A stretch of 64,000 nt of DNA, from assembly GCA_903813345.2 (NCBI GenBank), contig CAIIXF020000001.1, positions 15,500,001 through 15,564,000 on the forward strand, written 5' to 3'. The first letter of the stretch is position 1, and the number at the start of each line of letters is the position of its first letter. Of this stretch, positions 1 to 52,676 are shown one piece after another. This DNA is from Owenia fusiformis. Its lineage: Eukaryota. The translations under genes were made by a program, and so were the position numbers. The notes beneath the pieces were generated by a model, which saw only the letters and a list, made by a program, of their open reading frames with translations, had not been told where the DNA came from and ran no database searches.

Positions 1-1520
1 TTTCTTACCTACAATATAATCATATTCGTCATCTAGTACATCCCGTATTTTTGAATTAATGTCTACAGCCTTTTCCTTTGTAAAATAGAGATAAAGTGCG
101 GCAAGAACTATGATATATGACAAACTCTGGAACATTGTAAAGCTGCGCAGTGTCTTCTGTCTAGGTTAACCTTGGTCTCTCACACTGACCCACAGATACT
201 TATACTCGAAATGTATTTTTGATAATGTGTCACGGCAGATCTATATATACCCAATGTAAGGTCAGCCAATAGCTACGTGTTGGGTTGTTGGCCCCATTTC
301 CGTTTATAGGACACTGGTGGGTAAATCAATAACTTTTTAAATGACTGGCTCTAAATATGGTTTGAAGCTAGAACATTATTCCTTTTCTCAGTTTTTATAT
401 TTCACTTGATTAATATGCAATATTTTCTGTTAAATTGTGTAAGAAAGTAAACATAGACCCATTAATGGTTCGGTAAAATAGCTATGACACCACAGTAGCA
501 TGGTAGAACTGTCGCTGTGCGCGTTCTTCAAAACTATGGGCGCCGGAACAGAAACAGAACGTAGCTGCAACTTTCTACGGTATATTTATGAACTTCATGG
601 GCGCATTGGGACGGGAAGGTGATTGACTGAGGCCCAGGGACTGAGGACTTATTTAAAGAGTGTTTATGAACGAAGTAGCTAATTATTTTAGGCCTATAGC
701 TATTTCTCGACCACAGCCAGATTTAACCCATTTTACGTCTTTTCTTTAGATCTGGAAAGAATGGTTGAAAACTAGCCTAGTTTGGTGCAATAGAGGTTTT
801 ACACTAATTTTACGGCAAAGAGAAACGGTAGAAAAATGTCTGCGGCGGCTGCAGATTGGATGGTTTTGTATTTTCAAGAATACTTTAAAGTATGTTAAAG
901 TTACCTCTTACCCATATTTTACCTGTTCATTATAATTCAAGATTCAAATGTATGAATAGTGTAGATATACTGAGTGAAAATTTCAGCCAGATTGACTGAG
1001 AAACAAAAAATAGAGTACTTTTGCAAGAACTTTATGAACGCCATGTATGTATATGATTTGTCAAATATTTGTATCCTCCAACACATCGTTCATGTTAATT
1101 CATGTTTTGTATCCTCCAAACATTAAAATATCATCTTTGGGAAAAAATATTTTTAGATTATTATTTCGAGAAATGAAAGTACTTTAATAAAAGTGTTTAT
1201 ATCATTATTATTTAATTTTTGAATTATTTGAATTGTCTTAGTAAGACTTTATTAAGCATATGTTGGAGGATACAAAATGACTTTAAGATTATGTGGAATA
1301 TAAACGTACAATCAAAAGTTAGTTGCATAATCATGTTATAACTTTGTTGGAATAGCGATGCATGTAACCTTTACATTTCTATTCCACATTGTATGCTTCC
1401 TTTTTATTTCCATGACCGACACATAACCATAAAAATTTGAATGATGTTTCTCATTCCCTCATTGCCCACGCTGCGTGTTTTTTCATGATATTATATTTTG
1501 AATGCCGTTTGTTGTTCCCT
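1..1520. repeat. Segmental duplicate (copy A) of 21453..23593: GMC exon 1 plus upstream region
   Basis: 1..~965 aligns with ~21453..22415 and ~1328..1520 aligns with ~23400..23593 at high identity. The intervening segments differ. Confidence 0.92.
9..135 (-). CDS. First coding exon of a second GMC oxidoreductase paralog (gene continues off the left edge)
   Basis: ATG at 135 reads [42 protein letters not shown] then G|GTAAG donor at 8-7. Near-identical to exon 1 at 21462..21588. YDYIV precedes the GxGxxG FAD motif in GMC enzymes. Confidence 0.9.
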
Positions 1521-1772
1521 GATACTTATACCGGTCCACAACAGTAATCTGGTGGGCCATATACCGAAAAACGGTATTAGTTCTTGGAATACCCCTCGGT
1601 CGATAGTGCACAATGTTCGTTTTCTTAATATTTACGGAAAGACGCCATTTGCTGCACCAAATGGTTAGTTCATCAAGCATACGTTGAATTCCATCTTCTG
1701 TGCTAGATATTAACGCAACGTCGTCGGCATATAGAAGTATTGATATTTCCTCGCCGTTAACATTAACATTTT
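1521..1772 (-). mobile_element. Non-LTR retrotransposon (LINE) reverse-transcriptase fragment
   Basis: Minus frame reads ...NGEEISILLYADDVALISSTEDGIQRMLDELTIWCSKWRLSVNIKKTNIV...VDRYKYQG: YADD catalytic motif plus the LxVNxxKT and YKYLG-like downstream RT motifs. Truncated at both ends. Confidence 0.85.
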
Positions 1773-2448
1773 GTTATGTATTTTAAATGAACCGTTTTAC
1801 TCGTACATCTCAAAAACCAATACGATGATATTCATTCTATCGGATAAGTTCGAAAACAATTATGTGTCCATATTAGTAAATGATGTGATGTTTGTATGTA
1901 TATTCATTTATTTCTGTCTCTCACGTAAAGTACATCCAGCCGTTGCCGAGACTCATCAATCAATTTTTAAAGCTAAAGCCGTGTCATTCATTTCATTGCA
2001 TCGTTATCAATTTTAGTCATACTACTGTACTTTAGCTTTAAAATGGGTTCTTAATGATTATTCATATAATACCAATAACATGATTCATAAAATGATTCAT
2101 AAAAGACTCACTTTAACTCATTTTTCAACTTACATGAATGTACACTAGTGTGATACACAAGGGGCCCTTTTGGTCTATTAATTACATCATACAATAAATT
2201 CAGATATATCTGAATTGTAAAAGATATATCTGAATTGAAAATACTTTTAAAAATGAATGAAAAATAAGTCTAAAGTTACGATTGTTAAATCAAATCTGCA
2301 GCCTTGATCGTATAAAAAATATCTAGTGCATTGATTTTTGCTGGAAGCATGGTGTTTAAAGTTAATTATGCGTCCATATATATGGATCATGTGAAAGCTT
2401 TCAAAAATTTTAATAATGTAGGGTCTGATCAATAAGAAAAGGGAATCT

Positions 2449-5400
2449 TTAAGATTGTCTAATCAAATCTGCAGCCTTCTCTCCTATCATAATAGATGGC
2501 GCATTGGTGTTGCCTGATACGACATGAGGCATAATCGATGCATCTGCCACTCTCAGATTCTCAATCCCTTTCACTCTGCAAAACATGACAATACTTTGAA
2601 AGATCTCGGGCAAAGGCATTACTCGTTTAACTAGACATGTAAAAATTGAACAAGTTCAATTTAAGACTCCTAAGATTTCAGACTTTTTTAAGCTGGGTAA
2701 TGCCTGAGACTAACATAAATGGGATTGGAAGCCTTCCATTGACCATGTATTAAATTTTCAAAATCCCCACGCCACACGAGATTTCTCAAGATTTGGATTC
2801 TAGACGATCACCATTGGCGAATTCTTTTCGCCGGAGCTGTGCTTTTCTACAATTATGTAATTATACTCACTGTCTGGTATGTATTTAATCTATTAAATGG
2901 TATTATTGGGTGCATACATTAATTATTGGAAAATAGTAGAATCTGCATCAGAAACGTCCTTACAATACCATAATAGGCGATTGAAAAATTGAGAAAAAAT
3001 TTCACAAGGAAGACTGTCGAAGAATCCGTGGATTTTTGACGATTTATGTTAAAAATGACATAATTTATGTGTTTATAAAGTTATATATAGGTTATACATC
3101 AACAAGTAGGGCTTTCCTTCTCACTTTTTCTCACATTTTTGCAAAAATCTTTCGTCCATTTTTCAGTCAAAAAAGAATTTTCTCAAAAGTTTTCTCTTGC
3201 AGATAAATTATCCAGAAAAGCCACTGATATGGTCCATATATCATTGGAAAGAGCAAACTTAGTAGGTCATCTCAGACTTTTCATTTGGATTATAGATTGG
3301 TTCTTTTAATTGACATAGCTGATTGAAATCATTGTATTGGCAAAACTTCCCCTAACTCCTTGATTGCCTTGTGACTGATTATTTTTCAAAATTTTCATTA
3401 TCCAAATATCCTTCAGATATGGTTAATACGTCACTCTTTTCACGATAAATCGCCCACGATTTTTCAAAAGTTTACTTTTCGAAATAAATTCACCCAGACT
3501 TCTCCCATATATGGTTCATATATCACTGGAAAGAGCAGAATTAGTAGAATTCCAAAGATTTTTCACTGAAATGATGACAGCTTTGCTTTTTTAATTGTCA
3601 TAGTCCCCTGAAATCATGGTATTGGCCAAGCTTTCCCCTAGCTTCGCGATAAATTACCTATGATTTTTCAAAAATTTACTTTTCACATGAAATTCACCCA
3701 GACATCTACCATAATATATCGTTCATATATCACTGGAAAGAGCAGAATTATTAGAATTCCCAAAATTATTCACTGAAATGATAGCTTTCCTTTTTTATTG
3801 TCATAGTCCACTGAAATCATGATATTGGCCTAACTTTCCCCTCCTTTCGCGATAAATTGCCTATGATTTTTCAAAAGTTTACTTTTCCAAAATATTGATC
3901 CAGACATCCCCCATATATGGTTCATATATCACTGGAAAGAGCAGAATTGGTAGAATTCCAAAAATTATTCACTGAAATGATAGCTTTCCTTTTTTAATAT
4001 GCGAGTAGAAATAATCTTGATTTACGTCATTAATAATTCAAAATTCGGTCAAACTGATGTCATATTTGGAATCTACATGTAAAATTACATTAGGAAATGT
4101 GGTTTTGAAAAGAGTTTATCAACTTTGAAAATTTAATTTTCTTTGAAAATGTGACTTCTAGGTCGGGGAGATTCCCCATAGAGCCCATGTTGTAAAATCA
4201 CACAAAGTGAAATATCTTTTTTTGTGTTGGGCAGATAATATTTCTTTTACTAGACATATTTTAATTTGTATAACTATCAGATACATAAAGGTAATATGAA
4301 AAGTGAACCATTAAAACTGATGCATATTCGAGTTTAAGGAAATTTTGTAATACCCTGCCATGTTAATTCCCCCGAATCAGCCACCTGGTGGCGAAACTGG
4401 TAACTGCCAACTCGCATCTGAGTAATTGTCATAGTCCACTAAAATCATGGTATTGGCCTTATTTTCCCCTCGTTTCGCGATAAATCACCTATGATTTTTC
4501 AAAAGTTTACTTTTCCAATGAAATTCACCCGTACATCTACCATATATGGTTCATATATCACTGGAAAGAGCAGAATTAGTAGAATTCCAAAAATTATTCA
4601 TTGAACTGATAGCTTTCCTTTTTTTAATTGTCATAATTGTTATGATGGTCTCAGGTAATACAGAATAAGATGAGTCATCCAAAATAAGCTGAGTCAACCA
4701 GAATATAGACATTTAGACAATCCTTAGGTAGGGTTTCTTCCACCCTTACTTCAGAAGTCACACATTAAATTTGGAGAACTTTTTGTTTTGACCCACTTTC
4801 CGGACACCATATCTCAAAAATGGGCCAAAATACTTTGGAACGGCAAAATCCTAACGCTGTTAGCGTACTCTTTGTTATCTATATACCAAGTTTCATAGAA
4901 CATTATTAAAGTGTAGAATCAGAATCGTAAAAATAAGGAAAAATTATGTAAAGGACAAGTCTCGGTTTGGAGAACAGTCCCCTGGGCTAATACTTTTTTA
5001 TGAAAAATATAGAAATATCAACAGATCAACCAAATTAGATTATGAATATTCAAAAGAGGACATGTAAATTTACAAGATGTAAAAATATCAAAGTCCGAAG
5101 CAGGGGTAACACTCAATTAGACCGATCCAATAAAATACAAGTGGAGTAGTGACAGAATTATAAATCGGGATTAATGTACCTTAACTGTGGGTCTACGACT
5201 GAGTTCTTATCAGTAGCTGGTCCCATTCTGCATGTTGATGATGGATGGAATGTAGTCCACATGTTTGCTCTTATGAAACAATCCCAGTAAGCATCGGTGC
5301 CAAATCGGTGAGCTTTACATAAAGGGTGGTGATTTCTTTTCAGTTCAAATCCTCCCCTTTTGAATACATTTGTTTTTGCAAGTTTTTCTGTCCACACCCT

Positions 5401-8400
5401 TATCCCTATATATGAAACATGATTTCAGAAATATAGCAATGATTATTTATTTAGTTAGGTTTCAATTCAGCTAGGCTAACTACATATTGTATGAAAATGT
5501 GTTGACCTATTTTTAATTTTTTAGATTAATTATATGATGATTGAACATGTATTAATTATTAACCTGCCGTCAAATGTTTCACATCAACTGAATTTTTGAG
5601 GTAGTTTGGCTCAATCAATGGATGATCAAATGGATCCGTGCTCTGAAGTCTAATTGTACCATTGGTAGCTTGATGGAGCAATGTGACAAGGACACTGATT
5701 CCAGTTTTTCCGTTCAGTTCCTCATCTGGGTATATTGTATTCCACACCTGAAATTGTATTGGAACAGTTCATTCCATAACTGAAGGTGCATTAAAATAGA
5801 CCATTATACAACTGAAAGTACATTGAAATAGACCATTGTATAACTGAAAATGCATTGAAGTAGACTATTGCAAAACTGAAAGCGCACTAAAATAGTCCAT
5901 TACATAACTTGAAAGTGCATTGAAGTAGACTATTGCATACTCGTAACTGAAAGTACACTAAACTAGTCCAATGCATAACTGAAAGTGCATTGAAGTAGAC
6001 CATTGCATACTCGTAACGGAAAGTACACTAAAATAGTCCATTGCATATCTGAAAGCATTGAAATAGGCAATTGCATAACTGAAAGTGCATTGAAGTAGAC
6101 TATTGCATAACTAAAAGTACACTAAAATAGTCCATTACAAAACTGAAAGTGCATTGAAATAGACCATTGCATAACTGAAAGTGCATTGCAGTAGACTATT
6201 GCATAACTGGAAGTACACTAAAATAGACCATTGCATAACTGAAAGTGCATTGAAGTAGAGTATTGCAAAACTGAAAGTACACTAAAATAGTCCATTACAT
6301 AACTTGAAAGTGCATTGAAATAGACCATTGCATAGCTGAAAGTGCATTGAGGTAGACTATCGCATAACTTAGAGTACACTAAAATAGTCCATTACATAAC
6401 TGAATGTGCATTTAAGTAGACTATTGCACAACTGAAAGCGAACTAAAATAGTCCATTACATTACTTGAAAGTGCATTGAAATAGGCCATTGCATAACTGA
6501 TATGGCATTGAAGTAGAGCATTGCATAACTGAAAGTATACTAAAATAGTCCATTAAATAACTGAATAAAGGACCCACGGTCCTGCGCTCACACAGTTTGG
6601 AACCTTCAGAGGAATGTATATCCTGACTTTCAAACAAAAATATTGATTTGGATTTGTAGTCTCGAACTTTGAGAAACTTAGATAGCACAGTTGTGTGACC
6701 TAGTTTGATGACCTTTGACCTTGAAAATTTTACTTATTCAGAGCTCAGTAAGGTCTTTTGTGATTAAGCTGACCAAAATTTATATCCAAAAATCAATTGC
6801 AAAAATCAACTTTTTTTACCTTTCGAAGGTCACTGAAGGTCAAGTGAAGGTCAAATCCTAAAACTAATGTCAAATGGCAACTTGTAGATGATTTTCAAAA
6901 AAAATGGTCAAATTGAAGCAAGTTGAAAAATAACTTATTTTTACTGTTTTTTTACGTCAAATATCTCAAAAACGGTAAAAATTTGATGCTGACATATATT
7001 GAGCAATATGTAAGGAATGCTTAAATCTAGTAATGATGTAATTCATTGCAAGAAATGATCAAGTAAAAGGCAAACTTTGAGAAACTTGTCAATCACAAAA
7101 CCTGCCATTGACTTTATACATGAGAAAGTTTCCTGAAAATGATGTAGTCCTACTTTTTGTCAAACACCAAAAACTGTAATTCCAAGAGCTTTGAAATCTT
7201 CAAAGGACATAACTTGCATATACAGCAATTAGTACAAGTTATTTGAAAGTTCTATACTTCAACAAAGTGTCTAGTATTTACAGAAAATTTGACTTTTTGA
7301 CGTCAAAATCAGCAATTTCTCGGAAACCGGGCGAACTTGGGAAATGGTGATGATAGGTCAAATAGGCATTATGGATATGCATAAAATGATATGATTCAAT
7401 CCGAATAGCAGTTTTAATTTGTGCGGCCAATGTTGACGGACGGACGGACGCCTGGTCGATCCAATAGGCTCACTGTGTGAGCCAAAAAGCATTGAAATAG
7501 ACCATTGCATAAATGGAAGTGAATTGAAGTAAACTATTGCATAACTGAAAGCGCACTAAAATAGTTCATTACATAACTGAAAGTGCATTGAAATAGATCA
7601 TTGCATAACTGAAAGTGCATTGAAGTAGACCATTGCATAACTAAAGTACATTGAAGTAGACTATTGCATAACTGAAAGTACAATAAAAAAAGTCCATTAC
7701 ATAACTAAAAGTGCATAAAAATAGACCATGCATTACTGAAAGTGCATTGACGCAGACTATTGCATAACTGGAAGTGCACTAAAAGTCCATTACATAACTG
7801 AAAGTACACTTAAATAGTCCATTACATATCTAAAAGTGCATTGGAATAGACCATTACATAACTAAAGTGTATTAAAGTAGACGATTGCATAATTGAAAGC
7901 GCACTAAAAGAGTCCATTACATAACTGAGAGTGCATTAAGATAAACCATAACATAACTGAAAGCCCCTTGATATACTCCATTACATAATTGAAAGTGCTT
8001 TTGAACATTGCATTTCATTCATAGCTGGTATTAATTTTGCACTGAAATAGCGGATTATACATAACTGAAAGTGCAATGAAACAGTCTGTTACATAACCTC
8101 AAAACCATGGAAATATTGCAATTCCATACCTGAAAGTACATTGACATATTGCATTTCATAGCCGACATTTCATTGAAACAGTTCATTCCATAACTGACTT
8201 CCATATTATATTTGAAGGCACCTTGAAATATATTTGAAGGCACCTTGAAATTTAAATTGATACAAAAGCTCCGTCGACGACTAGACCTATATGAGGCGTA
8301 CGATATTTTGCAAGCTATATTTTAGCAGTACCTCATCAGTATATCCCATATTGCCTTTTATATAATCCGTTCCTTTATCACTTCCCCATATTACTGATAA

Positions 8401-11400
8401 TACATGAAACTGGATGTATGGGAATTTGTGATCATCTGGCTGGTAAGGAGATCTCATGAAGTACATCATGTCTGCCATTGGATTCTTCCATACACCTGTG
8501 AAAGACAAACATAAAATGGTTCACTCTTTATTTGTAGGTCCACATAAAATGCCTAAGAACAAGATTGTATTTTTCAAAAACCATGACCATTAAGAACTGG
8601 TTAATTCACATGGTTATTATTTGAGACACCAACCTGTTCCAAAGAGTTTATACTTCAAGGTCTCAAGTAAAGATAACGCTTGGTTTTCTGTTATGGCATC
8701 AACTTTGGTAAAAAATGTCAGCATGTCTGATGAAGAATGTTCCTCCATATTTTCCCCAACTGGTAGGTCTGCCACTACTGGTATCTAAGAAAGGGATGAA
8801 TTGTTCCATTTCCCATTGGTTTACATTAGGAAATGATGATTTTCAAAAATTCATCAAAATCATCAATTTTCGACCTACTTTAATTGAGGAAAAAATTGGG
8901 GGAGGCATTGGAAATGAAGTCAAGTTACATTTTCATCAATATCCTAAGTATTTTCCTCGCAGGACATGTAAATCTAAATTCAAACATAAAGAGGCTTTAA
9001 TACGTAGTTCAATGAGGGAGTTAAGGTTGCCAAACCTTTGGAGGGGAGTGTACACGAAGGAGCTCTGGATGAGTTTGTACGTATATATGATTCTACAAAA
9101 CTCACTCCTATCTCTTCAAGGTGTTTCTTAGGTCCTATTCCAGACAGTAGGAGAATGTGAGCTGATCCAACAGCACCTCCTGATATTATAACTTCCTTTC
9201 TTGCTTTCACATTTTTCTTGACCAATCCCCTTATATAAGCTACACCAACTGCTTTCTTGCCTTCTAGGAGGACCTGTTTCCAATACAGTTACAATACAAA
9301 AACAATGTCGATTTCATTAAAAAATTAACACGCCTAACCATCGACAACGTACAGTGACAAAATATACGGGTGTACACGTTAGTTGTTTCAAGCAAAAATT
9401 GTGATGTTGATTTTAAAAGAAGTTTCTATGGAATATGATGAAGTATCTCATGTTAAATTTTATGTGCATGCTCTTGGCAAGACTTTTAACTTTCAGAGTA
9501 CGATTTTTTTCTAGGTAATTCCACCCACGTAAATGTGAATGTAACCAACATTTCCCAACCCATCCATCTTGTGGTTGGGATACCTAGAAAAAAAATATGA
9601 TTCGAAGCGTAAATTACGTTTATTAATCGTATCTCGAAAATTTTGAGGCCGCTATTTTTGTTTGTCGATTTTGACCAATTAGAGACGTATGTCTCAATAC
9701 AGGTCTAAATTATAAACGTAGGTCATCTTTGAACTCTGCAGTAATCCCCCTGAACGCGTACCTCAATTTAATTTCAACTAAGATTTTCGCCAGCTAAAAT
9801 GTCACTCGACTTTTTTGCAAAAAAACTTCCAAAAAGTAACAGTCGCATTAATTCACATTGTCGTACTTACAAAATGATCCACCGCCTAACTTATGCACCA
9901 TCGAACTCGGTAATATTGTACACGTAACTATTAATTACCGTATATTCCCATATAAAACTGGGCTTGCTTTTCAACATTTCAAGCGAAAATTCTCTACGGA
10001 GCTTTTGTTTTTCTGACGTAATTTCTTCTAAGAAATCGGTGACGTGATAGGTTCAGTTCATCTTATTTCGAAAGGGTTGTCATCTATTTAGAATATTTAT
10101 TTTCATTTTGTCCAGTCCTATATACAACCTGCCCTTATCCTTTTCGCTTGTAAAACCGCGTAGTAATGTTGAAATTATGGAATAGATTCTCTGATTTGGC
10201 GACATGTCTGCATCTCTACCATTTTGCGTTTGACACCCCTCGTTTTGGGCGAGTCCAAGTAAACCGCACATCCGGGTGATTAGAAAATAGACATTTTTCA
10301 AGAAAATTCGAGCGGTGAGACAGATTACCCTGGTCAAACTGAGTTTTTGACGAAACGTATGAAAGAATCAATATTTGTGATATACATTAAGCGCCAATTT
10401 GAAACTTCAGAATGCCTTCTGTGATTATCACAAAAAAAGTCGAGTGACATTTTAGCTGGCGAAAATCTTAGCTCAAATATAAACTGACTTTTGTGACGTG
10501 AGCTTGTGTTGCTACGTGTAGATTTTTTCTGTCCATATATGGCTCTAAGAAGGCAGTTGCAGTGCTAGACCTCTCTCCATTGGCATCTATAGTTACCTGG
10601 GCTGCGTTCCAGCCTAGGGAAGAGACAAAATAACACCGACTTGATGTACAACACAACGTTCCATACAATACATAGTACAGGGTGGTCAAAAAAATGGAAA
10701 CCCTGCATTTTCCTTATATCTTTTTCACTTTAAGGAATTACTCCCTGATATTTCATACATTTGTACATCATTCAATTTCCTACCACCCTACCACATGTCA
10801 TGACCATCAGACTGATAGTCACAATTTTACAGCACTTTGAATAACATGCTTCAGATTTGGCCATTATCGCGCTGTAGGCAAAACAGCACAGTTGTCAATG
10901 ACCCGAATGCATTCCTCAGCAGGTATGGCCTAAATGACACAAATGATCTCACTTTTGAGGTTTGCAATTGTCCTGAGGTCATTCTCATATACTCTATCTT
11001 TGCCATATCCCCACAGGTAGGGACATTTTAGACGATGAGTACAGGTTTCCCCACAACGCAATAGTGGCCACTGGGCATGTTCTTTAAAGTACTGTAACAT
11101 TGTGACTGTCAATCTGATGGTCATGAAATAAAGTAGGCTGGTAGCAAATTGAATGATGTACACAGGTGTAAAATAATAGGGAGTTATTTCATAAAACGAC
11201 AAAGATATGAGGAAAATGGTATTAGGGTTTCCATTTTTTTGACCACCCTGTACGATGTATATGCCGCCGAGAACGATTGAACTTTTTAATGGTTGTAAAT
11301 GCAATTGTATTTTCAATGGTGAACAATTGTATAACTATATTATCAGTTAACCTATAATCCCATGGTTTAATTTAGCCCACCCTGTGAATATTACTATGAA

Positions 11401-14400
11401 CAAGTAAGTCAAGTGATATATCTGATCCACAAAGTATCCACAAATGCTTTTCACTTTCAGGACTACTTTTCATATCTTAAGTTAAGAGCTGAATGAAACT
11501 GAAAATGGTTTACCCATTTGATCTTCGCCATTGTAATCCTCTGTAGTTTTGAATCCTGCTTCAACCGCTGCATCATAAACATACTTTATACATTCAACTT
11601 CATCCACAACTGATACTTGTAGAGGCCCTGAGGTGCCATGGTATTCTATAAATTATAGACACATATATGATATCTATTAAAAGCCAATACTGTATTCTAA
11701 CTTCTATCTGGATCATATAATTGATATAATCACATTTTGTTATTAGAGGCTAGGACTTGAGCGAACACTTCTTTTAGTAATTTACTTCCATAAAATCATA
11801 CCAGGATTGGAAACAGGAATTCAAAAAATATAAAAATCCAGATTCCCGCCTCAAGTAGCTCATCTTGGTGACTTGAACTTGCACAGCTGTATTAACAATA
11901 ATCCAATCACTCGAAATTTTAAGTGTATCTATTAGCCACATTTGACTGTTTCTTGTCAACTGGTAAATGCAGTCAGAGTTTTGGCAATGGATGACGTGAT
12001 CAGAAGTGCACCACGGGTGTTCGATAGCAGTAAACCATGATGTCTTTCAATAGAATTACGTTAGTGTAAATGGGCCTGGATGAGCTTTTTGTTTAAAACA
12101 CGTGATCATGTAATGAGCACTGCAGGACTTATTGTTCTTTTTAGACCTCTAAAACTCATTAAAATATTACGCAATTCACCAGCACCGCGGGATTACAAAA
12201 AGACAGCCTTAGTGTGTTCCAGTGATTTAAGTATAACGCGGTATCCCCGCCAGAACCGCGCGAACGATCGCGCGACCATTTTATTAGTCGCGCGACAATT
12301 TTACAGTTCCGCGATCATAATCAACCAATAGAAAGTGATGGTTTATTCGCGCGAAAACATGAACTATTCGCGCGACCATTCGCGCGGTTCTGGCGGCGAT
12401 ACCGCGTCATATTTAGGCCTATGCACACTGGTCAAGTGAGTCCCCAACCTAGTTATAAAGACGTTTGGATGAACTTTCGTCGGAGGAAATATTTATTTTC
12501 GTCATTTTCATCAAGAAAGAGGTCGATTTGTATCCAAATATTTTACTGAAAATCTATGCTGTCACGAGCAAATATATCCACTCGTTTCAAAAATCGAGTG
12601 GAATTCCTCACTTCAGCAAACAGGACGTAATCTGGTGAATTTCATAACGTCTGGCTATTATTACCACCTTGCCGGTCCTATTCTAGGGGTATTAGTGCTA
12701 GTTTAGAAGAATTTTATTTTACTATATTGACCTGAGCAATATGTAACGTCATTATGGCGGGCCACAGTGGCGGGCCAATATTGGATTAATTAACAGCCCG
12801 TCAATGTTCCCCGGGAAATTAGATATCGTTAAGTGCGTATAATTTTGTTCAGTGGCAGTCCGTTCTTGCTATTTCAGCCCTGGGCATAAACGATGGTAAT
12901 AATACTAATAACCTCATTATTGCGGGCAAAATAATGAACTATTAAACCTTGGGCCTTCGGGCCTTGGTCCAATATAAAGCCGTTATTCACCAGGAGGGAT
13001 TTGATATGGGGAATATCTCAAGGATCTATTGAAAGCCCATGATATCACCCGATGGATATTCCTCATATCACAGTGGCGTAGGAACAATGTACGCCAAAAC
13101 GCCAGTGCGTAGTGTTGAAAAGTGAGAATAAAAAGGCTTATTAATTTTCCTATGTTCTTTATTCATATTTTATCATTGTATTGTGCAAAAGTAATCTCGA
13201 GCACACTAGCCTAAAGAAATGTTTTGTGGATACCATATGATATGCTCGATTTTTTCAATAGTTCTCTTTTGCATGGTTTTTGTGCCTCTGTTATTTTTCT
13301 AACCTGGGCCACAGATAAATGACACTTTTTGAAAAATAAAATAATGAAAGTTACCTTGTTTCTACAGTTCTAATACTGTAGAAAATGCAAAGTAATCGTT
13401 ATTGCTCTGTTTGGCAAATAAGCATTTAACAGTGGATTGAATTACATTACCAACATGCTTTATTTCATGAAAATCGAGCCACTATTGACTATCTTATGGA
13501 TTTTAAAACTAAAATACCATTTCGCAAAATTTTCGTGATTCGCGTTCTCATCACGAATTAGAGAAAAACAGTTTTTTTCAAAAACTACTTGATGAATACC
13601 TTTGCAATTTTTGTGCATGTTCCGTAATGCTTATGCAAACTGTGGTATCATTTAATTATAATGATGATGAACCTCTTTAAATTAAATGTATATTTTTCTA
13701 TTCTCCCCTACCCCCAATTTTTCAATTTCACTATATCGATTTATATTCCGTTGCGAGGCAAAATCATACACAGAAATTATAGTTAAAGGGACAAAGTGCG
13801 TAAATGAAGTCTCTCTTTTGATCTTCATAGTATTTCCAATGAATTAATAAGTACCTGATCTTTCATTTGACACCAAAAACAGCTCAAACAGACCACATCA
13901 GAGTTGACACTAGATCATGAAAACATATTTTTGATCTATCAATTTATATGTGTCAATTTCTAAGCAGTGTCATAGAAAGATGGCATTGTTGTTTGCATTG
14001 ATTATCCATTCATTTTTGATAGGATTTTCAAGCATACGCCATCTTTTAATCCAAGAGTTATTTGGAACATACACTTTCTGAAAAGTGGTAATTCACTTTT
14101 TTCAATCTCTGAACTTCAAATTCCGTTTTCTGTGCGAGTAATTTTTTTTCACTGCAGTATTATCCCAAATTAAAGTTTTTATCATATTTGATTGACTGTG
14201 TGAGTGACATGTCTCAAATAATTTTTTGTTCCTTTTCTTTCAATAATAGGCGCATTGCCTGTTTAAGTCAGCAATTATCTGTTTTCTTACTAAATCACCA
14301 ATTGTTATTGTTAGTACTACTAAAAATATGAATGTTAAAGACAAAAACAACTTGAAAATGTTGTGATTCTTCAATTACGCGTTCCATTGATCTCAGTTCT

Positions 14401-17400
14401 ATAAAAGCTATTACCTAGATTTTTTATTTCATTTGAAAGATAATAGATTATTGTTTTAGGAAATGTAACATTTTGGCACCCCCTTAGTCACGTTGACCTC
14501 GATTTGACCTTTGTAGTGGGAGGTTTATTTGGTCTTGCGAATTAGTGTTATAAAAGACTTGCAGACATTAGGGTTAATTGTATCATTGATCACGAATGTG
14601 TTTCTTTAAATCAATTGATCAAACTAGATTCTTTAATCTGTACGTTTTGTCGTATTGCACGGTACACGATGGAATCAGACAATAGTATATATCTCCATTT
14701 AATTATTCGAAATGATTAAAAATCTCTCATTGTTATTTGGAAATTGGTCGTCTATATCGTTCGAGACATAAGAAAAGTGAGAATGATTTGTGTCGAGATT
14801 TAAAAGATCGGCTTTCCATGGTGATTTTAAATGATGAAAATCATCCGAACATTTTAATCACATTAAAAAGGAATCGGGGATTTTAAGCTTACATATAAAA
14901 TCGAAACGCCAACCTAAACATACGACCCATCGCCCATACAAATGCATTGCTTAAATATTTCCGTTCACATTTAGGTTGTGAAAACATTGCAAGCTTAAAA
15001 TCTCTAATGCCATAAAATGACGTTTTACGAGCATAAAATAGGCATTTTGATATACAAGATGATTTGACACAACAATTGTTTAATATTTTTGGCGGGATTT
15101 TTTGGCGTAGTGTTGAATTTACACCTTCCTACGCCCCTGTATCATCCCGACAGGTGCATAACGATCTTATACCATGGTTAAGAGCAATATAATCTAAAGT
15201 CATCTGTTGAATGAGAGAAAAAAATGTCCGACTCTTACTCTTAGGAATATTTAAGTTTCATATAGTATACCGTCATATCCTTTGATAATTTAAAGAAAAG
15301 GAAAAAGAATTCTTCAAAATTTGAAAAATTAAAATTATTTTTAAACCCGAAAAATTAAAATTGTTGAAAAAATAAAGTTTTTGAAAAAATGAAAACTATT
15401 TGAAAAAGTGAATTTCCTTTGAAAAAATGTTAAAGGACATTATCCCTGCTTCGGACAAATTTGATTTTTTTACATAATATAGATTTGAATGTCTTTTGAA
15501 TAGTCATAATTTAATTTAGGTAATATTTCTAGATTTTTCTCAAAAAAATATTAGCGCAGTACACTGATGAACTTCTTTCCCTAAATAGAGACTTGTATTT
15601 TATTAAAATCGGTCTAATTGAGCGTTATCCCTGCTCCAGACCAATTTGATATTTTTACATCTTGTAGATTTAAATGTCCTCTTTTGAATATTCATAGTTT
15701 AATTTGGGTAATATTTCTATATTTTCATGAAAAAATATTACCCCAGGAGACTGTTCTCCAAACCGAGAATCATCCTTTTTGAATTTACCCGGGATGATAT
15801 CATCCCTGATAGCATTCCCCTAATCCTGATAACATACCTGTCCCAAATATGTGATTTATCACTTGCTATTATATACCTGATATTGCTATAACCATGGTAT
15901 TATTCACTATATTGCCCCTTGAAATGACGTTACTACTAACGTAAGTTATTAACGTCCTGGTTGCTGAAGTGAGGAATTCTCACTCGATGATTAGAGACTT
16001 TGGATGTACATTATACTCGTGACTGATGCGCAATTCAGTAACCGGATGCTCCTATTAACATAAGGGTTAAAAATTTGGATACAAATCGACCTTATTCTTG
16101 GTGAAAATGACGAAATTAAAATATTCCTCCGACGTAAGTAACATTGGCATCAGTGACGTATTGAAAATATTTTTTCTTAAAAATAGATTTATGATGATTT
16201 TGTAGCATAAAAATCTAAGTTTGCTAATATAGACTCGGACTATCTTCTTATTTCAACATTCGTTTTCGTTAGGTAATGATTTCCCATGGGATAAAAGGAC
16301 AATCTTTTGTTGGTTTTTCAACAATATCAATTATATCCACTCATAGATATAATTATCCTCACTCATTCGCTGCGCTCACTCGTTTTTATGGATTTACGTA
16401 AATTATATCTTTTTTTTTAAAAACAGCGGATATTCCTATAATATCCATAACGATATATTGAAATAGATATGCGTCGATCCCATTTACATTGACATTTTCT
16501 CAACTTCAAATGATAAATTTTGGACTGACTTATATCAATAGCAGCCATATCGAGAGTAATGGATTATAGGATTATGGTATGATGGCTAAAAAAGGTTTAA
16601 TAACCTTTTACAAATAACTGTTAAAAAAGAAAAGAAAATACCGATAAAATGTGGAAGGCATTGCGACAATGTTCGTTTAAATTTTTTAGATACGCGCGAT
16701 TCACTTACTTGATTTGCTTAATTTTGGATCAAGTTGTGTTTCAGATTTCTTGAAATATGGAAGTACATCTTTGTAGCTCCACCCTGTGTTCCCAAGCTCT
16801 GCCCACATGTCATAGTCATATTTACTACCACGCGTGTATTGCATGTAGTTATGTGCACTGCAACCTCCAAGTAATTTGCCAGTTGCCCATCTACTTTGCT
16901 TCAAAACAAGTAAAATGTGTATTTTTCATTAGTAAAAGAAAGCAATTATTATAAAATTATGGTGATAATTTGAGATTTTAGCTACCTGTGCAAGATCATC
17001 CACATTTATATAGCTTTACTAGAAGAGTATGTATGCCAAAGAGTAATTGGACTTTTTGATTTACAGGGTGGTCAAAAAACGGCAACCCTAGTTTTTCCTA
17101 ATATTTTTGTCATTCTAAGTAATAACTCCCTGATATTTTAGACATTTGTACAGCATTCAATTTCCTACCAACCTACCATATTTCATGACCATCGGACTGA
17201 TAGTCACAATATTACTGCATTTTAAGCAACATGCCCCAGATGGCCACTTTCGGGCTGTCTGAGCTGGTCTGTTATTCAAATGAACTCCATTTCCTACTTG
17301 ATGCACTGGCAATCATGTATTCTTTGGGGAGCCAAGCACTTGATGAAGTAGTGGAGAGGCACCTTCACACAGACAGATGCACAGTTTAGTGTGTTCTCAG

Positions 17401-20400
17401 AAGATAGGGTCCTTTACATTTGATGATATCAACGGATATGCAATAACTGTCAACACCAAACTCTATTTTGTGATTCCCATGGAGTTCTTTGGGACTTTGG
17501 TTGAACCCAGGGGGGTTGATAGGCAGCAACAGTGGTTCCAACAAGATAGAACCATACCCCATACACCCAATGATGCACCCCATAGCCCAGATATGGCCCC
17601 ATTTAATCTTTACCAGTGGGGATACCCCAAAGATAAAGTGTAGGGTAATAACACCAGAAAGACATCTGACCTCAAAATAAAGATCACATGTGTCGTTCAG
17701 GCCATACTTGCTGAGGAATGCAGTAATGTCATTGACAGGTTTTAAAAAATGTGTGCAGGTTTGCCTACAGCACGATATTGGAAAACTGGGGCACCTTGTT
17801 TAAGGTGCTGTAACATTGCGACTATCAGTCCAATGTTCATGAAATAACAGAGTCTAGTATGAAATTGGATGATGTACATGTGTGCCAAATATCAGGGCAA
17901 AATCTCTAAAAATAACAAAGATATGAGGAAAAATTAGGGTTGCCGTTTTTTCACAACCCTGTACTTTAGTTAATTTTCCTTAATTAATTTTGTCTTCAGC
18001 TCAAGCAAAATCATAGATCTAGAAGTAAAAAAGAAAAAATGGTTTTGCACAGGTACACAAGGAACCCCCCCCCCCCCCCCCCCGGGGAATATGACAATCG
18101 CAATGTGGTCAATTTTGGATATACTAGTCACTCAAGAAAATTGCAAAAATAACATATAAAATGACTCCATGTTAATTTTCAAATGTTGTGAATTCTCACT
18201 GAAATCTAGGTAAATTACCTAAATACCAGTGGGTAATCGGTTTCACCACCAAGTGGCTTACACTCGGGTAAGATAACATAGGAGGCATCCAGAACTTTGC
18301 CCAAAACTAATCAATAGACTTTAAAGATTATTTATCTAACGTTTTTGAGTAAAATGGGATTTTGAATAGGATATCACTTTCTCGAAATTTTGAATAGTTT
18401 AACGAAGTCTATTTAAATCACAAAGAATTAATTATAACCGGAATTTTCAAAAATATGAATTTTATAATATTTACCGAGTTTTCCAAGCCTTTGCAACAGT
18501 GTTTCTGAGGAACTGTTTTGTACTCCCAGTCCATGCTTGTCCGTTGAGTAAACTTGGTCCCCAATGGCGGTTTTGTGAGAGGGTTTGATGCTTCTCCAGC
18601 TTCAAGGAGCAACACTTTGGTGTTTGGGTCTTCTGAGAGTCTACTTGCTACAACAGCACCTGCTGATCCTGCTCCAACTGTAACCATACATGGATTCAAT
18701 TTCTTTCTGCATGAGGTGCTTTGGATTGAGCAAACCCTCAAATGGATTTCAATCAATTATTTATTAATTGGTTTATTGGTTTCTTGAACTCATTTAGCTA
18801 CATCGAGATGAAAGTTCGACAAAGCAAATGACAAATAAAACATGCATGGCAAAACATGATAAGCAAATAAAATGATTTAACATCAATTTAACAACTCTTT
18901 GGTAATATTGTGAACTCTTGTAAAATGATCACCAATTGTTTCATTAATTGCATCATCGTGCGCTAACAAAGAGAATAAAAATAAACTACTTGTATTGAAA
19001 TAAAAAAAAAACTATACTAGTATTGTTTATACCTCATTTGGTCTATTGATGTCAACACTCTCCCTTTAAATCTAATATCTATTATTAACTTTCGTTTCCT
19101 CATGTTTTATATGTCTCTGATTTGAGCAAGTTAATTCTTAAACAGAACTAATTTCGATACATATACCTTCTTTGAATATTGCGACTTTTCCATTTTGATA
19201 TGTATCCAGTCTACCTTTTGTTTGAATGTACCTAAGGTACAGAACAGCCAACTTGAAATTGTGGAATTGGTGTGACCTTACATTAAGCTAGTATAATGGC
19301 ATGCAATTGTGTTCTGATTGGTTGGAATTACATATTGCTTGCCAATATGCGAATTCCGTTCCGACTGTAATTTAAGATTTTTGAAATGTGAATGATATGT
19401 ATATGTGACAAGGTGCACTTAAAGTCAGTGGGGTGTTTAGTTTCCCAATCAGTATGCTCGGGTCATGTGACTGTGTCTGTGACCTAAGGAAAAAGCGTTA
19501 TTTACACGGTACCCAAAAGTATATCAAGACCACATATAAACCAATCAATACTTTTTGCATGGCCCAATACACCATTTTTATTTCAGTCTTGTCTTTTTGA
19601 TGCTTTAACCCTTTACCTTTTATACCACATATTCAATGTAACCTCATATTTCGATGACAGCCTATATATCCTTACTGCTACATTGTTCATCACATTTGAT
19701 AATACTTCCGGTGGAATATTTTGGATCTCTCTTTTGATCTTGCCTTTAAGTTGTTCTAGGTCTTTTTGCTTGGAATGATCATTAATACACTCCTTCAAAA
19801 TAGCCACAGAGAAAGATGTTTGAGGATGACGATGGCAGAACAAACACAGATGATCAGGTCAATTATCGGCAAATGTTTCAGGAGTTACCTTCCAGAGTTA
19901 GGCAGGCTAGCCTAGCCTGGAGACCAAATGATATCCAAATGAAAACACAGTGGTCTCAAATTGAAACACACAACAAAGACTACATTAGAATCCCAACCAA
20001 TGCAGTTTCTTGAACCTCTGACCTGAACATTCCACCAGAAATATCAAATGTGATGAACAATGTAGTCGTAAGGATGCAGACTGTTATCGAAATATGAGGT
20101 TACATTGAAAATGTGGTGTAAAACAGGTAACGGGTTAAAGTATCAAAAAGGCAAAACTGAATTAAAAACTGTGTATCGGGGAAAAAACTTTCATCTTTTA
20201 TCTACAAGACCATGCAAAATATGTCTGAAAATATTAATTGGTTTGTCTATGCTGTTGATATACTTTTTGGTACATTTTTTGAGACACCCTTAGGCCTATA
20301 TAGTCACATACCGGCTGGTACTGTATATGACTTTGATATTGTAATTGTGACTTCGGACTTTTGTATTCCATACATGATAAAGTGTATTATACACTTACCT

Positions 20401-21588
20401 TTAGCGTTCTATGATAACCCAAGGGCAATTTATTCAATGTTGTCTCGTTGAGACTGACAAACGCTACCACTTCAACACTGGTTTGGATCGAAAGATTTGT
20501 CCGCTTACTCCATGAAATGGGTACAGTATATCATTTGCACCTTCAGACCTTTCACCGCTATTGAAAATCCATAAACGCTGGGGGTAAAAGCGATTGAAAA
20601 CGGCGCCAGAGTATTTATCATACTCTAAAACGTATCTTTTTAATGATATCTAGATGTATTCGGTCTTTTGAATTTTTATAAAAAATAATTTTTGAATTTT
20701 TTGACCGCTACTATGGAGGAGGAGTTTCAAATGTGAAATACATTAAGAAAGACGTCAGACATTAAGGAATTATCATTGAAAATTTATTGAAAATAAGCAA
20801 AAAATTACCTCCAACAGTAGCGCACAAAATGGTTTGAAATTTTAGTTTTCATTGAATCATAGTATTTGAAACATTATAAGAACTTGTTTTCAACCTAGAT
20901 AGGCCAACAATACTAGTTTATTTTGAAGGTTTAGCGTATTTGGAAAATAATTGTGCCGGAAAAATGACAATTTCTGATGAATATCTTTTGCCTGATCTAT
21001 TCTGTTCAATGGAGTAAAGAAATGATGTGTTTTACAGTGCTAAGTGTTGTATTTGACCTAGGTCAGCAGCTGAGCACATTTCACACTGGTCATATAGAGC
21101 AAGGTCTTGGGCTTATTTTGAGCTTGGGTTCTCTGCCCTAGCCCCTGCAACGAATGTTAAAATTGGTCCTAAAGGTGGCGCCCCTGCAATTTACCCCAAA
21201 TTTAAAACCAATTGTTTCTAAAAATGGCGGGAAATTCAGATATTTAAGAATTAAAAAATGAATGATTTTTTCAAAAGTCCTGTTTTTCAAAATACGAGTC
21301 GTATGTCAAGTCAAGTCATGAAAAGTAATATTTGAATGGTTAACTATATTTTCAATTTTAACACGGATGTTTTAAACATCACACCCTGATCAAAACCTGA
21401 TCACACCACAGTCATTTATACTGATTCTCCATTATTGCATATAATTTATATTTTTCCTTACCTACAATATAATCATATTCGTCATCTAGAACATCTCGTA
21501 TTTTTGAATTAATGTCTACAGCCTTTTCCTTTGTAAAATAGAGATAAACTGCGGCAAGAACTATGATATATGACAAACTCTGGAACAT
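2449..21588 (-). CDS. GMC oxidoreductase (glucose/choline dehydrogenase-like), 11 coding exons, ~598 aa, N-terminal hydrophobic signal/anchor
   Basis: Exons (minus): 21462-21588, 18475-18677, 16709-16898, 11514-11645, 10489-10613, 9106-9273, 8634-8784, 8332-8495, 5564-5747, 5180-5405, 2449-2575. All GT-AG, phases consistent, total 1797 nt. Motifs: YDYIVVGAGSAG (FAD), [72 protein letters not shown] (catalytic His), [18 protein letters not shown] (Asn). Confidence 0.95.
3130..4635. repeat. Degenerate ~200-bp tandem repeat in the last GMC intron
   Basis: Core ATATGGTTCATATATCACTGGAAAGAGCAGAATTAGTAGAATTCC recurs near 3227, 3508, 3718, 3913 and 4543. Confidence 0.85.
3999..4422. mobile_element. 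Insertion with a TAAT target duplication inside the 200-bp array
   Basis: Array motif TTTTTAATTGTCATAG is split; TAAT is present on both sides (3995-3998, 4423-4426); short inverted ATGCGAGT/ACTCGCAT near the ends. Confidence 0.6.
5740..8210. repeat. 32-bp minisatellite (ATTGCATAACTGAAAGTGCATTGAAATAGACC-type) with ~3-unit higher-order variation, in GMC intron 8
   Basis: Dozens of units at 5740-6565 and 7487-8210; alternating TGAAGTAGACT / CTAAAATAGTCC / TGAAATAGACC variants. Confidence 0.95.
6565..7486 (-). mobile_element. Helentron/HINE-like non-autonomous element inserted in the minisatellite
   Basis: Subterminal inverted repeat GCTCACACAG (6586)/CTGTGTGAGC (7473), terminal hairpin GGACCCACGGTCC, (GGAC)n microsatellite at ~7435-7450, inserted in an A run with no TSD. 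Confidence 0.75.
9781..10468. mobile_element. MITE with ~37-bp TIRs, TA-flanked
   Basis: AGATTTTCGCCAGCTAAAATGTCACTCGACTTTTTT at 9781 and its reverse complement ending 10468; TA on both sides; ~20 bp from the exon 5 donor. Confidence 0.85.
10678..11250. mobile_element. Tc1/mariner-derived MITE
   Basis: TA|CAGGGTGGTCAAAAAAATGGAAACCCT...AGGGTTTCCATTTTTTTGACCACCCTG|TA; internal minus-strand relic [11 protein letters not shown] resembles a mariner/maT transposase C-terminus. Confidence 0.9.
12232..12411. mobile_element. Short CpG-rich palindromic MITE
   Basis: ACGCGGTATCCCCGCCAGAACCGCGCGAA ... TTCGCGCGGTTCTGGCGGCGATACCGCGT inverted arms with internal CGCG repeats. Confidence 0.75.
13071..15139. 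mobile_element. Non-autonomous DNA transposon, TIR CAGTGGCGTAGGAA/TTCCTACGCCCCTG
   Basis: TIRs at 13071 and ending 15139; TATCA directly flanks both ends. Confidence 0.75.
13787..14262. mobile_element. TTAA-flanked (Kolobok-like) MITE nested in the previous element
   Basis: TTAA|AGGGACAAAGTGCG ... degenerate CGCATTGCCTGT|TTAA. Confidence 0.5.
17064..17961 (+). mobile_element. Tc1/mariner (maT-like) defective element, same family as 10678..11250
   Basis: TA|CAGGGTGGTCAAAAAACGGCAACCCTA...TAGGGTTGCCGTTTTTTCACAACCCTG|TA; transposase relic WFQQD..PH...SPDMAP...QWGYPKDKV at 17377..17643. Confidence 0.9.
19505..20290. mobile_element. Decayed mariner-like foldback element
   Basis: Long imperfect inverted arms (~19510-19715 vs ~20025-20272); relic peptides [26 protein letters not shown] (-) and FEDDDGRT...VNYRQM (+) resemble mariner transposase segments. 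Confidence 0.65.
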
Positions 21589-50584: not shown

Positions 50585-52178
50585 TCTACAACCTATAAGA
50601 CCATATAGAAATCAGCTTAGACTAATCTGAACAGCACAGTTATCATGAAAGTTTTTCAGCAGACATGACCAGCCTACTTTTTATGTGGAAATCAAATTCA
50701 AGTTATTTAGATAATAATGGAAAAGTTAGAGATGCTGGTATCATACATATAGGTAATTCCTCTCCCAACTGATGGGATAATCATCAACATTGAAAAGTAG
50801 TTCACCTGCAGTAGCTGCATTGATGCTCATTCTTTTATCAAAAGATGTAATTTGTGTTGCTAGGTGCTTATTTGAGCTGGAGAGGCTAAATTATTATTCA
50901 TTAACGACTATAAGAGGTAGTTATTTAGGCATAATGGAACTCTACATTTTCAGCCTGCTTAATAGAATTGTTCTTGTGAAATTAGAAATCATTTAACCTG
51001 TCTGATCTGAACATAAAAATACATAGAGTTCACCTGCTTGAGTTCTATACCATAGAATTGCCTCTATTATTGCTAAGCTGGTGAATTTGTTTCAGTTTAA
51101 TTAAAGGTTCTGTGAAAAAGAATAACCACAGTTGTTGTTTTTTATTTTATTAATTAAAACATGTTTTTGAATAAAAAAGAGGAATTTTAATCAAACTTCA
51201 TAAAATATTTACTTTCATGGTCTTACAGCATTCAGATACCAAGATTTACTTTGTATTGTGTTGGTTGCTATAATCAGGATGCACATGGTAGATGCTAACT
51301 ATGGTTCATTGATTATTCTGGAAAGAGAACTGCAAATTATTTTATTGAAGTATAGTTATTTTACATGCAATGTTCGTCAAAGCTTAACAGTCTACCAGAG
51401 AGCTACTTGAGTTAACAATAACTGGGAACAGTTAGAACTGTAACGGGCATTTGAGACAAATGCAAAGTAAAGCCTTGGATAAAGGTAAAGTAAGAGTGAG
51501 ATTAATTTAAGAAGCTAGTAATATTATCTGAGATTGTTTCCTCTTGTGCCTAGGTGAGTAAATGTCAAAGGAGTTGATCAGTTCCAGGGTGTTATGGAAA
51601 AGATCTCACAAATACTTCCAGTTTTGTTGTATTTGTAGGATTTATTCAACTGCTGACTGTGGCTGATTGTTCTTAATTAGTAATGTTCTTTTGTCTTGTT
51701 TCATGAAAAATTCTCGTCTTTATATTTGGAATCAGAAATACATTTTGGGACAGAAGTGGCAAAATTCATGTTAATTTTTTCGTTACAAAAGTTAACATCA
51801 GAATTGTTTTTTTTTTTTTGACATACAAAAATTAGGTAAACAAAATATTTCAAAAACTCTCATGCCAATAAAATAATGTTTTATGACTTTGTACTTTCAG
51901 ATTGTGGCCAGAATTTATGCGGCACTAGATGACACACACATGATATACAGCCCACTTTAGAGAACAACAAAAGAACATTAGATCTGTGTACTGGTGTAAT
52001 AACTCAACTTGGTCTAATTTATGTCCAATATGAGAACTTTTAGCAAATTGGAAGTGTTGATCCTAGATCAGTAAGAGGACATAACTTTTACCATCGGAAC
52101 ATCATATTCATAAAAGCTCATAATACAGATTAGATATCAGACAGGATTGCTGATTAACAGTAAGGTCCCTTAAGGATA

Positions 52179-52676
52179 ATGGAAATGAATTACCTCCGGA
52201 ATGACAGCTCTGTGCATAAAAATGTTTATTTCCCAAAGGCCTATGGGGACAGGCCCATAGGTAGTAAACATGACACTGATGGATACACCGATTCGGACGA
52301 TCGACCAAGCGCAATTGGTATTGGAATAACATTTGCAGTGTTGGTCTCCCTTTTCCTCTTGTTCTTCCTGTTTCTGGACCTCAGGAAACCGTTTAACAGA
52401 ATAGCCGCCCGGTTCTGCCCAGGCTATGTTTCACGAAAGGACAGCTATCAGTCGGTTCATAGTTATCTCTCATTTGGAAGTGATTCTTTGAATGGAGATG
52501 TGCCAAGGAGACTTTCAACATTTCAAACCATTGAGCGACGTGTTTCAGAATTTGTCGGCATCAAAGAAGGGGATCGTCCTTCTAATAGACGCTACAGCAA
52601 AATAACAGATGATTCTTTGGTAGACTCAAAGATGCAAATGAAACAGGAAAAGCGACGCTTCAGTTGCAATGTATAA
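52179..52676 (+). CDS. Uncharacterised 165-aa single-pass membrane protein
   Basis: ATG-initiated ORF, more GC-rich than its flanks; one TM segment AIGIGITFAVLVSLFLLFFLFL followed by basic residues; plausible 5'UTR acceptor TTTCAG at 51895-51900. Confidence 0.75.
   Translation: MEMNYLRNDSSVHKNVYFPKAYGDRPIGSKHDTDGYTDSDDRPSAIGIGITFAVLVSLFLLFFLFLDLRKPFNRIAARFCPGYVSRKDSYQSVHSYLSFGSDSLNGDVPRRLSTFQTIERRVSEFVGIKEGDRPSNRRYSKITDDSLVDSKMQMKQEKRRFSCNV

What the first reader, a model, noticed from the sequence alone, without database searches (positions are those of the whole stretch)
16848..16868. Animal GMC oxidoreductase with a covalent-FAD-type motif (GGCSAHN, His126)
Seen: [18 protein letters not shown] where typical animal GMC enzymes have GGSSx(I/L)N. 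Established (recalled): Arthrobacter choline oxidase (GGCSSHN, His99) and Agaricus pyranose dehydrogenase (His103) attach FAD covalently through the His at this position. The intron-rich structure argues against contamination. Inference: independent gain of 8-alpha-histidyl FAD, and so a raised redox potential, in a secreted or anchored animal GMC enzyme.
Basis: partly seen in the sequence, partly recalled or inferred. Interest (0 to 1): 0.7.

Follow-up and report, generated by a model that had tools for sequence, protein, structure and literature searches.

The report
Worm flavoenzyme with predicted covalent FAD
A marine worm has multiplied a family of alcohol-oxidising enzymes carrying the same histidine that a bacterial and a fungal relative use to bond their FAD cofactor permanently, and snails and clams gained it separately; the bond itself has not been measured.

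Summary
GGCSAHN lies on the minus strand in exon 3 of an intact 11-exon GMC oxidoreductase gene whose product equals a 598-aa Owenia fusiformis protein. His126 aligns without gaps to choline oxidase His99 and pyranose dehydrogenase His103. It is not a lone gene: 11 of 18 GMC loci found in the genome carry the His, four in a tandem array here. Nor is it a single event: a Batillaria-containing gastropod clade and a bivalve-type clade gained it separately (one origin rejected, p-AU 2.6e-49). In all three clades, as in both microbial enzymes, a Cys three residues upstream comes with it (22 of 22 His rows, 5 of 123 others). Covalent 8-alpha-N3-histidyl FAD is likely (about 0.7) but unmeasured: bacterial pyranose oxidase homologues keep the His without bonding, and no structure model was obtained. 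The expected redox gain is small (16-32 mV in two GMC enzymes). It is not a choline oxidase (Glu312 absent). Substrate, electron acceptor and location are open. New variant of a known kind.

The parts
16848..16868 (-). GGCSAHN flavin-loop motif, residues 121-127; Cys123 codon 16862-16860, His126 codon 16853-16851
21462..21588 (-). Exon 1: start codon, hydrophobic N-terminal segment (residues about 5-19), start of the Rossmann fold
18475..18677 (-). Exon 2: GxGxxG ADP-binding motif
   Evidence: spliced to exon 3 in contig X1 record 4
16709..16898 (-). Exon 3: holds Cys123, His126, Asn127 and Tyr128 (position of the si-face N5 partner)
11514..11645 (-). Exon 4
10489..10613 (-). Exon 5
9106..9273 (-). 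Exon 6
8634..8784 (-). Exon 7: His331 (choline oxidase His310); Ser333 in place of choline oxidase Glu312
8332..8495 (-). Exon 8: substrate-binding domain
5564..5747 (-). Exon 9: holds the only N-glycosylation sequon (Asn449)
5180..5405 (-). Exon 10: Cys511/Cys524 pair and catalytic His535 (codon 5247-5245; choline oxidase His466)
2449..2575 (-). Exon 11: Asn579 of the His-Asn pair (codon 2511-2509; choline oxidase Asn510) and stop codon
9..135 (-). Exon 1 of the next tandem copy (P0002, 95% identical, also His-type); the array runs about 67 kb beyond the window edge

Best explanation
An active, lineage-expanded GMC alcohol oxidoreductase that tethers its FAD through His126 (8-alpha-N3-histidyl), as choline oxidase and pyranose dehydrogenase do. 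Shown: fold family, position of the His, His535-Asn579 pair, intact gene, purifying selection, repeated independent gain with Cys123. Inferred from known GMC chemistry: after folding, the flavin 8-alpha methyl forms a quinone methide that His126 attacks, without a helper enzyme; His535 takes the alcohol proton, hydride goes to N5, and the tether fixes the ring and raises the potential by some tens of mV. Inferred, weaker: Cys123 is an enabling second site that packs against or orients the imidazole. My best guess at the job is a membrane-anchored oxidase on the lumenal or outer side that turns a neutral sugar, polyol or aryl alcohol into its carbonyl and makes H2O2 (about 0.45; a quinone-linked dehydrogenase about 0.3). 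The confidence below is for the covalent bond.
For: Gap-free match to His99 and His103 in the same C-S-x-H-N context. Both microbial enzymes carry 8-alpha-(N3)-histidyl FAD (PMC3541233 Table 2). In fungi the same swap from Ile/Val to His marks the covalent PDH clade, 93% conserved (PMC6509819). 11 of 18 genome loci keep His and Cys through synonymous changes; none of the 7 others has Cys. dN/dS 0.36 and 0.27 against the two intact tandem neighbours. Three separate lophotrochozoan gains. Cys123 is the only other column shared by the three His clades and found in at most 12% of other rows; 0 of 140 control triples have such a column in residues 117-135. A contig joins exon 2 to exon 3 at the predicted junction.
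Against: No biochemical or structural measurement, and no model was obtained. Bacterial pyranose/glycoside oxidases keep the equivalent His yet bind FAD non-covalently (His127 6.5 A from C8M), and grafting in the fungal motif did not create the bond (PMC10646112, PMC9659204). The N5/O4 environment matters for flavinylation; here the H+2 residue is Tyr, not Ser, Gly or Thr as in the three proven cases (PMC3541233). The Cys-His link rests on 4 independent pairs (sign test p 0.125); fragment P0416 and 5 cluster mates have His with Gly; Cys without His is common in bacterial rows (93 of 452 non-His domains overall); 26 of 140 control triples have a rare shared column somewhere. Patulin synthase has Arg at this site, so polar residues occur there for other reasons. 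Exon depth was near zero in three raw RNA runs.
Confidence: 0.7

Rival explanations
1. His126 is selected but not bonded: it hydrogen-bonds near the dimethylbenzene edge of a tightly held, non-covalent FAD and tunes potential or substrate access, as in bacterial glycoside 3-oxidases.
For: PsG3Ox, ScPOx, AsPOx and MtCarA keep the His without a bond (PMC10646112, PMC9659204). Tyr128 at the N5-partner site differs from all three proven cases. His-with-Gly fragments exist.
Against: Those counter-examples are in the pyranose-oxidase branch with a His-Trp loop. The two solved His-Asn-loop enzymes that I checked, choline oxidase and PDH, are both covalent, and both have the Cys.
Confidence: 0.22
2. 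The His is a near-neutral change that was copied along with a gene-family expansion driven by something else, such as dosage or substrate range.
For: The site tolerates L, I, F, V, Y, T, S and M. The Owenia His rows may stem from one event (support only 55). One bivalve-type paralog 86% identical to a His-type one lacks both residues.
Against: His is kept across Owenia paralogs as far apart as 67% identity, with synonymous codon changes. It arose at least three times with the same partner residue.
Confidence: 0.07
3. The gene is a bacterial or fungal contaminant, or a transferred choline oxidase or PDH gene that brought the His with it.
For: The motif resembles those microbial enzymes.
Against: Ten spliceosomal introns on a 62-Mb contig. 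Closest relatives are non-His Owenia GMCs (57-64%), then mostly mollusc and unnamed GMCs at up to about 48%. It nests inside the animal clade in two trees. Glu312 is absent.
Confidence: 0.01

Closest known systems
Arthrobacter globiformis choline oxidase (PDB 2jbv/3ljp)
   Same: GMC fold (E 2e-71); C-S-x-H-N loop with His99 = His126; His310 = His331; His466/Asn510 = His535/Asn579.
   Different: Choline-binding Glu312 is Ser333; N5 partner Ser101 is Tyr128; the worm protein has a hydrophobic N-terminus and a conserved Cys pair; separate origin of the His.
Agaricus meleagris pyranose dehydrogenase (PDB 4h7u)
   Same: Best hit to the 27-residue motif stretch; extracellular eukaryotic GMC; gained the His from an Ile/Val ancestor (PMC6509819).
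   Different: His-His catalytic pair and Gly105 at N5 (PMC3541233), against His-Asn and Tyr here; fungal.
Animal 'glucose dehydrogenase [FAD, quinone]-like' GMCs of molluscs, nemerteans and insects
   Same: Nearest relatives, up to about 48% identity; His-Asn pair, Cys511/Cys524, hydrophobic N-terminus.
   Different: Most have a hydrophobic residue at 126 and Ser/Thr at 123. Aryl-alcohol oxidases, including arthropod ones, are described as non-covalent (PMC12198266).
Bacterial pyranose / C-glycoside 3-oxidases (PsG3Ox, ScPOx)
   Same: His at the equivalent flavin-loop position.
   Different: Non-covalent FAD, His-Trp loop, distant branch. They are the warning that the His alone does not prove a bond.
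Gastropod mannitol oxidase and aromatic alcohol oxidase (activities only)
   Same: Membrane-bound, H2O2-making alcohol oxidases of lophotrochozoans; mannitol oxidase sits in ER-derived tubules and its gene was unidentified in 2018 (PMC5846779).
   Different: No sequence link was tested; the match to these GMCs is my conjecture.

Membership tests
GMC oxidoreductase superfamily | GMC_oxred_N and GMC_oxred_C domains above Pfam cut-offs | tested here: met
   156.6 bits (cut-off 23) and 132.2 bits (cut-off 24.6)
GMC oxidoreductase superfamily | GxGxxG-(x18)-E ADP-binding motif | tested here: met
   GAGSAG at 44-49 with Glu68
GMC oxidoreductase superfamily | C-terminal His-His or His-Asn catalytic pair | tested here: met
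   His535/Asn579 align to choline oxidase His466/Asn510
8-alpha-N3-histidyl-FAD GMC enzymes (choline oxidase, PDH, fungal P2O) | His at the flavinylation position | tested here: met
8-alpha-N3-histidyl-FAD GMC enzymes (choline oxidase, PDH, fungal P2O) | His NE2 within bonding distance of flavin C8M | tested here: inconclusive
   structure job had not finished; sequence alignment only
8-alpha-N3-histidyl-FAD GMC enzymes (choline oxidase, PDH, fungal P2O) | Flavin retained after denaturation; lost in His mutant | not testable with these tools
   needs expressed protein
Choline oxidase | Glu312 that binds and positions the substrate | tested here: not met
   Ser333 here, Thr in the neighbouring copies; role of Glu312 seen only as a reference title in PMC10980864. 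The genome's choline dehydrogenase-type gene is another locus, L018, without the His
Pyranose dehydrogenase | His-His catalytic pair | tested here: not met
   His-Asn (PMC3541233 Table 2)
Pyranose 2-oxidase | STHW flavinylation motif | tested here: not met
   SAHN here (PMC9659204)
Secreted / lumenal GMC enzymes | Cleaved signal peptide or lumen-facing anchor | tested here: inconclusive
   hydrophobic 5-19 (mean 1.99 over 15 residues), charge 0 before and +1 after; one sequon; Cys511 and Cys524 each in 50 of 51 rows; no signal predictor on hand

The most novel reading that the evidence does not exclude
Cys at -3 plus His is a two-residue switch that is enough to turn a His-Asn-loop GMC enzyme into a self-flavinylating one. 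It has been thrown separately in bacteria (choline oxidase), fungi (PDH), an annelid, gastropods, bivalves and a choline-dehydrogenase-like protein. The animal His-type enzymes would be the first covalently flavinylated animal GMCs, and natural pairs such as P0159/P0145 (86% identical, both residues switched) would let one read off the minimal requirements. The gastropod clade would be a candidate for the gene behind mannitol or aromatic alcohol oxidase.
Probability: 0.3. Interest if true: 0.72.

Novelty: new variant of a known kind. Interest (0 to 1): 0.52.

Why it matters
Histidyl-FAD is known chemistry, and animals have other covalent flavoproteins (recalled: succinate, sarcosine and dimethylglycine dehydrogenases). 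In my searches, covalent FAD in the GMC family was described only for microbial enzymes. How a flavoprotein gains a covalent cofactor is not settled: putting the fungal motif into a bacterial homologue failed (PMC10646112). Repeated gains in animal paralog families, with close His and non-His sisters, give natural before-and-after pairs and point to a second residue (Cys123) that none of the passages I read discusses. An 11-locus expansion also suggests a real, unstudied oxidative chemistry in Owenia.

Tried and rejected
No complex prediction was run: it cannot score a ligand. RNA: no listed holder was on record as RNA; three raw RNA runs (6-12% of each read) covered mostly intron repeats, with depth 0-0.26 in the bins holding exon 2 and most of exon 3, so they say nothing on tissue or stage. 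Only one contig run gave a spliced piece, and it could come from a near-identical copy. ESM Atlas gave generic arthropod GMC clusters and no structure. The 50%-cluster library added only two His-type hits among its best 150 (P0344, P0416); His-type proteins can hide there behind non-His representatives. No His was seen in the insect GMC rows retrieved, but the queries were built on lophotrochozoan flanks, so insects were not surveyed fairly; I recall that honeybee glucose oxidase may have a His here and did not test it. dN/dS values with the third tandem copy are spoiled by its broken exon 4 and were not used. Choline oxidase, PDH and P2O identity were rejected (membership table). Horizontal transfer was rejected, though the trees hold no choline oxidase or PDH row. 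Quaye 2009 (PMC2719336) is not held; PMC12335561 was irrelevant. Earlier scan notes had nothing on this gene. Supplements (for example Figure S4 of PMC6509819) were not opened and may bear on how often Cys goes with His in fungi.

Full report
Observation. Bases 16868-16848 on the minus strand read GGCSAHN within [18 protein letters not shown]. I built the gene from splice signals: 11 exons from 21588 to 2449, all ten introns GT..AG, 1797 nt, only the terminal stop. The product is identical to P0001, a 598-aa protein that its source names as Owenia fusiformis, and the His is residue 126. Pfam finds both GMC domains well above cut-off. One assembled contig (run X1, RNA by the tool's guess; depth 4.65; 4 differences in 304 letters) joins 18475 to 16898, the predicted exon 2-3 junction, so this gene or a near-identical copy is spliced. 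Three raw RNA runs gave almost no exon depth.

Position of the His. Against Arthrobacter choline oxidase (3ljp, E 2e-71) the loop aligns without gaps: His126 = His99, His331 = His310, His535 = His466, Asn579 = Asn510; Glu312 falls on Ser333 and Ser101 on Tyr128. Against pyranose dehydrogenase (4h7u) His126 falls on His128 of the deposited chain, which I take as His103 of the mature protein. Both enzymes carry 8-alpha-(N3)-histidyl FAD (PMC3541233 Table 2, passages; PMC10980864, passages). Both also have Cys three residues before the His.

The family in this genome. A search of the genome with exon 3 gave 18 matches (a lower bound). Eleven have His, all with Cys at -3; the seven others have I, L or T with Ser or Thr at -3, one of them the choline dehydrogenase-type gene. 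The His loci lie on five contigs. Four form a head-to-tail array over about 88 kb that starts in this window. Three of the four are intact; the third has the end of exon 4 replaced, with a stop and no donor. dN/dS against the two intact neighbours is 0.36 and 0.27. His is kept in paralogs down to 67% identity, with both codons. The residue at H+2, the si-face N5 partner, is Tyr in nine His loci, Gly in one and Thr in one, a hint that copies differ in tuning.

Other animals. In 201 full-length homologues from two searches, 12 had the His: seven Owenia and five others. A His-weighted profile added a named Batillaria attramentaria protein and, from the 50% library, a fragment 54% identical to the Owenia choline dehydrogenase and a short mollusc-like fragment. 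In a 51-row tree with motif columns 123-128 removed, His rows fall in three places: inside an Owenia-only clade, beside a non-His Batillaria protein among gastropods, and deep among Mya/Mercenaria-type bivalve proteins (unnamed records P0159, P0161, P0163, P0173). At least 4 changes are needed, and holding the 11 His rows together is rejected (p-AU 2.6e-49). The 51 rows were my choice from about 300 proteins then in hand; a 215-row FastTree gave the same three places. The three clades are 46-48% identical to each other. Neither tree holds choline oxidase or PDH.

The Cys partner. In the lophotrochozoan-type part of the 215-row tree (150 rows; 5 dropped for no motif match), 22 of 22 His rows have Cys at -3 against 5 of 123 others. 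These rows include near-copies. Scanning all columns, Cys123 is the only one besides His126 that all three clades share and that at most 12% of other rows have. Among 140 control triples of non-His clades, 26 had such a column somewhere and none had one in residues 117-135. P0159 and P0145 are 86% identical and differ at both sites together. Against this: only 4 independent pairs exist (3.7 agree on average, none opposes, p 0.125); six fragments of one cluster have His with Gly; and Cys without His is common outside animals (93 of 452 non-His domains). Cys may be a permissive earlier step rather than a requirement.

Mechanism. By analogy to the proven cases, the bond forms by itself after folding through a quinone methide (PMC12149734, passages). 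His535 deprotonates an alcohol and hydride passes to N5 (established GMC chemistry). Loss of the bond lowered the potential by 16 mV in OPOx and 32 mV in ToPOx (PMC11650716; PMC12149734) and cut PDH efficiency on monosaccharides about eightfold while raising O2 reactivity fivefold (PMC3948749; all passages). In fungi the same change from Ile/Val to His separates PDH (93% His) from aryl-alcohol oxidases (PMC6509819, passages). But the His is not enough: several bacterial pyranose oxidase homologues keep it with free FAD, and motif grafting failed (PMC9659204, PMC10646112, passages). Those have a His-Trp loop; the worm enzyme has the His-Asn loop of the two covalent enzymes. I put the bond at about 0.7. 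Neither flavinylation nor the catalytic pair decides between oxidase and dehydrogenase (PMC3541233). Without Glu312 the substrate is unlikely to be choline; a neutral sugar, polyol or aryl alcohol is my guess. The N-terminal hydrophobic stretch (about 5-19) looks to me more like an uncleaved anchor than a cleaved signal; the conserved Cys511/Cys524 pair and one sequon favour a lumenal or outer face, but this is unresolved. Gastropods have membrane-bound H2O2-making mannitol and aromatic alcohol oxidases, and the mannitol oxidase gene was unidentified in 2018 (PMC5846779, passages; PMC12198266 and PMC8140971, passages); a link to these GMCs is conjecture.

Novelty. Ten literature searches (listings only, except the papers named above) showed no animal GMC with covalent FAD and nothing on Owenia GMCs. 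The insect GMC survey PMC1891103 does not use the word covalent. Most subscription journals are not in the library, so this is not proof of absence. The chemistry and the fold are known; the repeated gain in animals and the Cys-His coupling appear undescribed.

Noticed in passing
G000:C1 about 15,474,966-15,456,986 (L021-L023): Third copy of the tandem array: the end of exon 4 is replaced by other sequence with an in-frame stop and no splice donor; database protein P0004 skips the exon. Probably a recent pseudogene.
   Followed up: partly
window 16883-16881 (residue 116): The Arg of the W-P-R-G-K motif (111 of 119 aligned rows) is Thr in the three newest tandem copies; might reflect relaxed non-covalent FAD contacts (speculation).
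   Followed up: partly
L007 and L008, exon 3: H+2 residue (N5 partner position) is Gly in L007, as in PDH, and Thr in L008, as in P2O, against Tyr in nine other His loci.
   Followed up: no
P0344 (unnamed record): Choline dehydrogenase-like fragment with C-S-N-H-N: a possible fourth gain of the His, in another GMC subfamily.
   Followed up: partly
   Followed up: partly
window 40785-45374 (-): 1530-codon open frame: Srw/7tm_1-type GPCR behind a very long outer part with a Ser/Thr-rich repeat and WPF/Cys repeats; already noted in e1-7275514 and e1-7275515.
   Followed up: partly
window 56414-57898 (-): Single long open frame for an MGAT4-type glycosyltransferase with both MGAT4 domains.
   Followed up: partly
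window 37370-37681 (+): Exon matching DCAF17.
   Followed up: no
window 17062-17963, 10668-11260, 19509-20273: Elements with long terminal inverted repeats inside the GMC introns, Tc1/mariner-like by their ends (recalled); they draw most of the RNA reads laid on the gene.
   Followed up: partly
window 1486-1773 (-): Reverse transcriptase fragment (RVT_1) between two tandem copies.
   Followed up: no
window about 5750-8250: Degenerate tandem repeat filling much of intron 8.
   Followed up: no
window 52164-52673 (+): Open frame with one hydrophobic stretch and a basic tail, no Pfam match; perhaps the last exon of a single-pass membrane protein.
   Followed up: no
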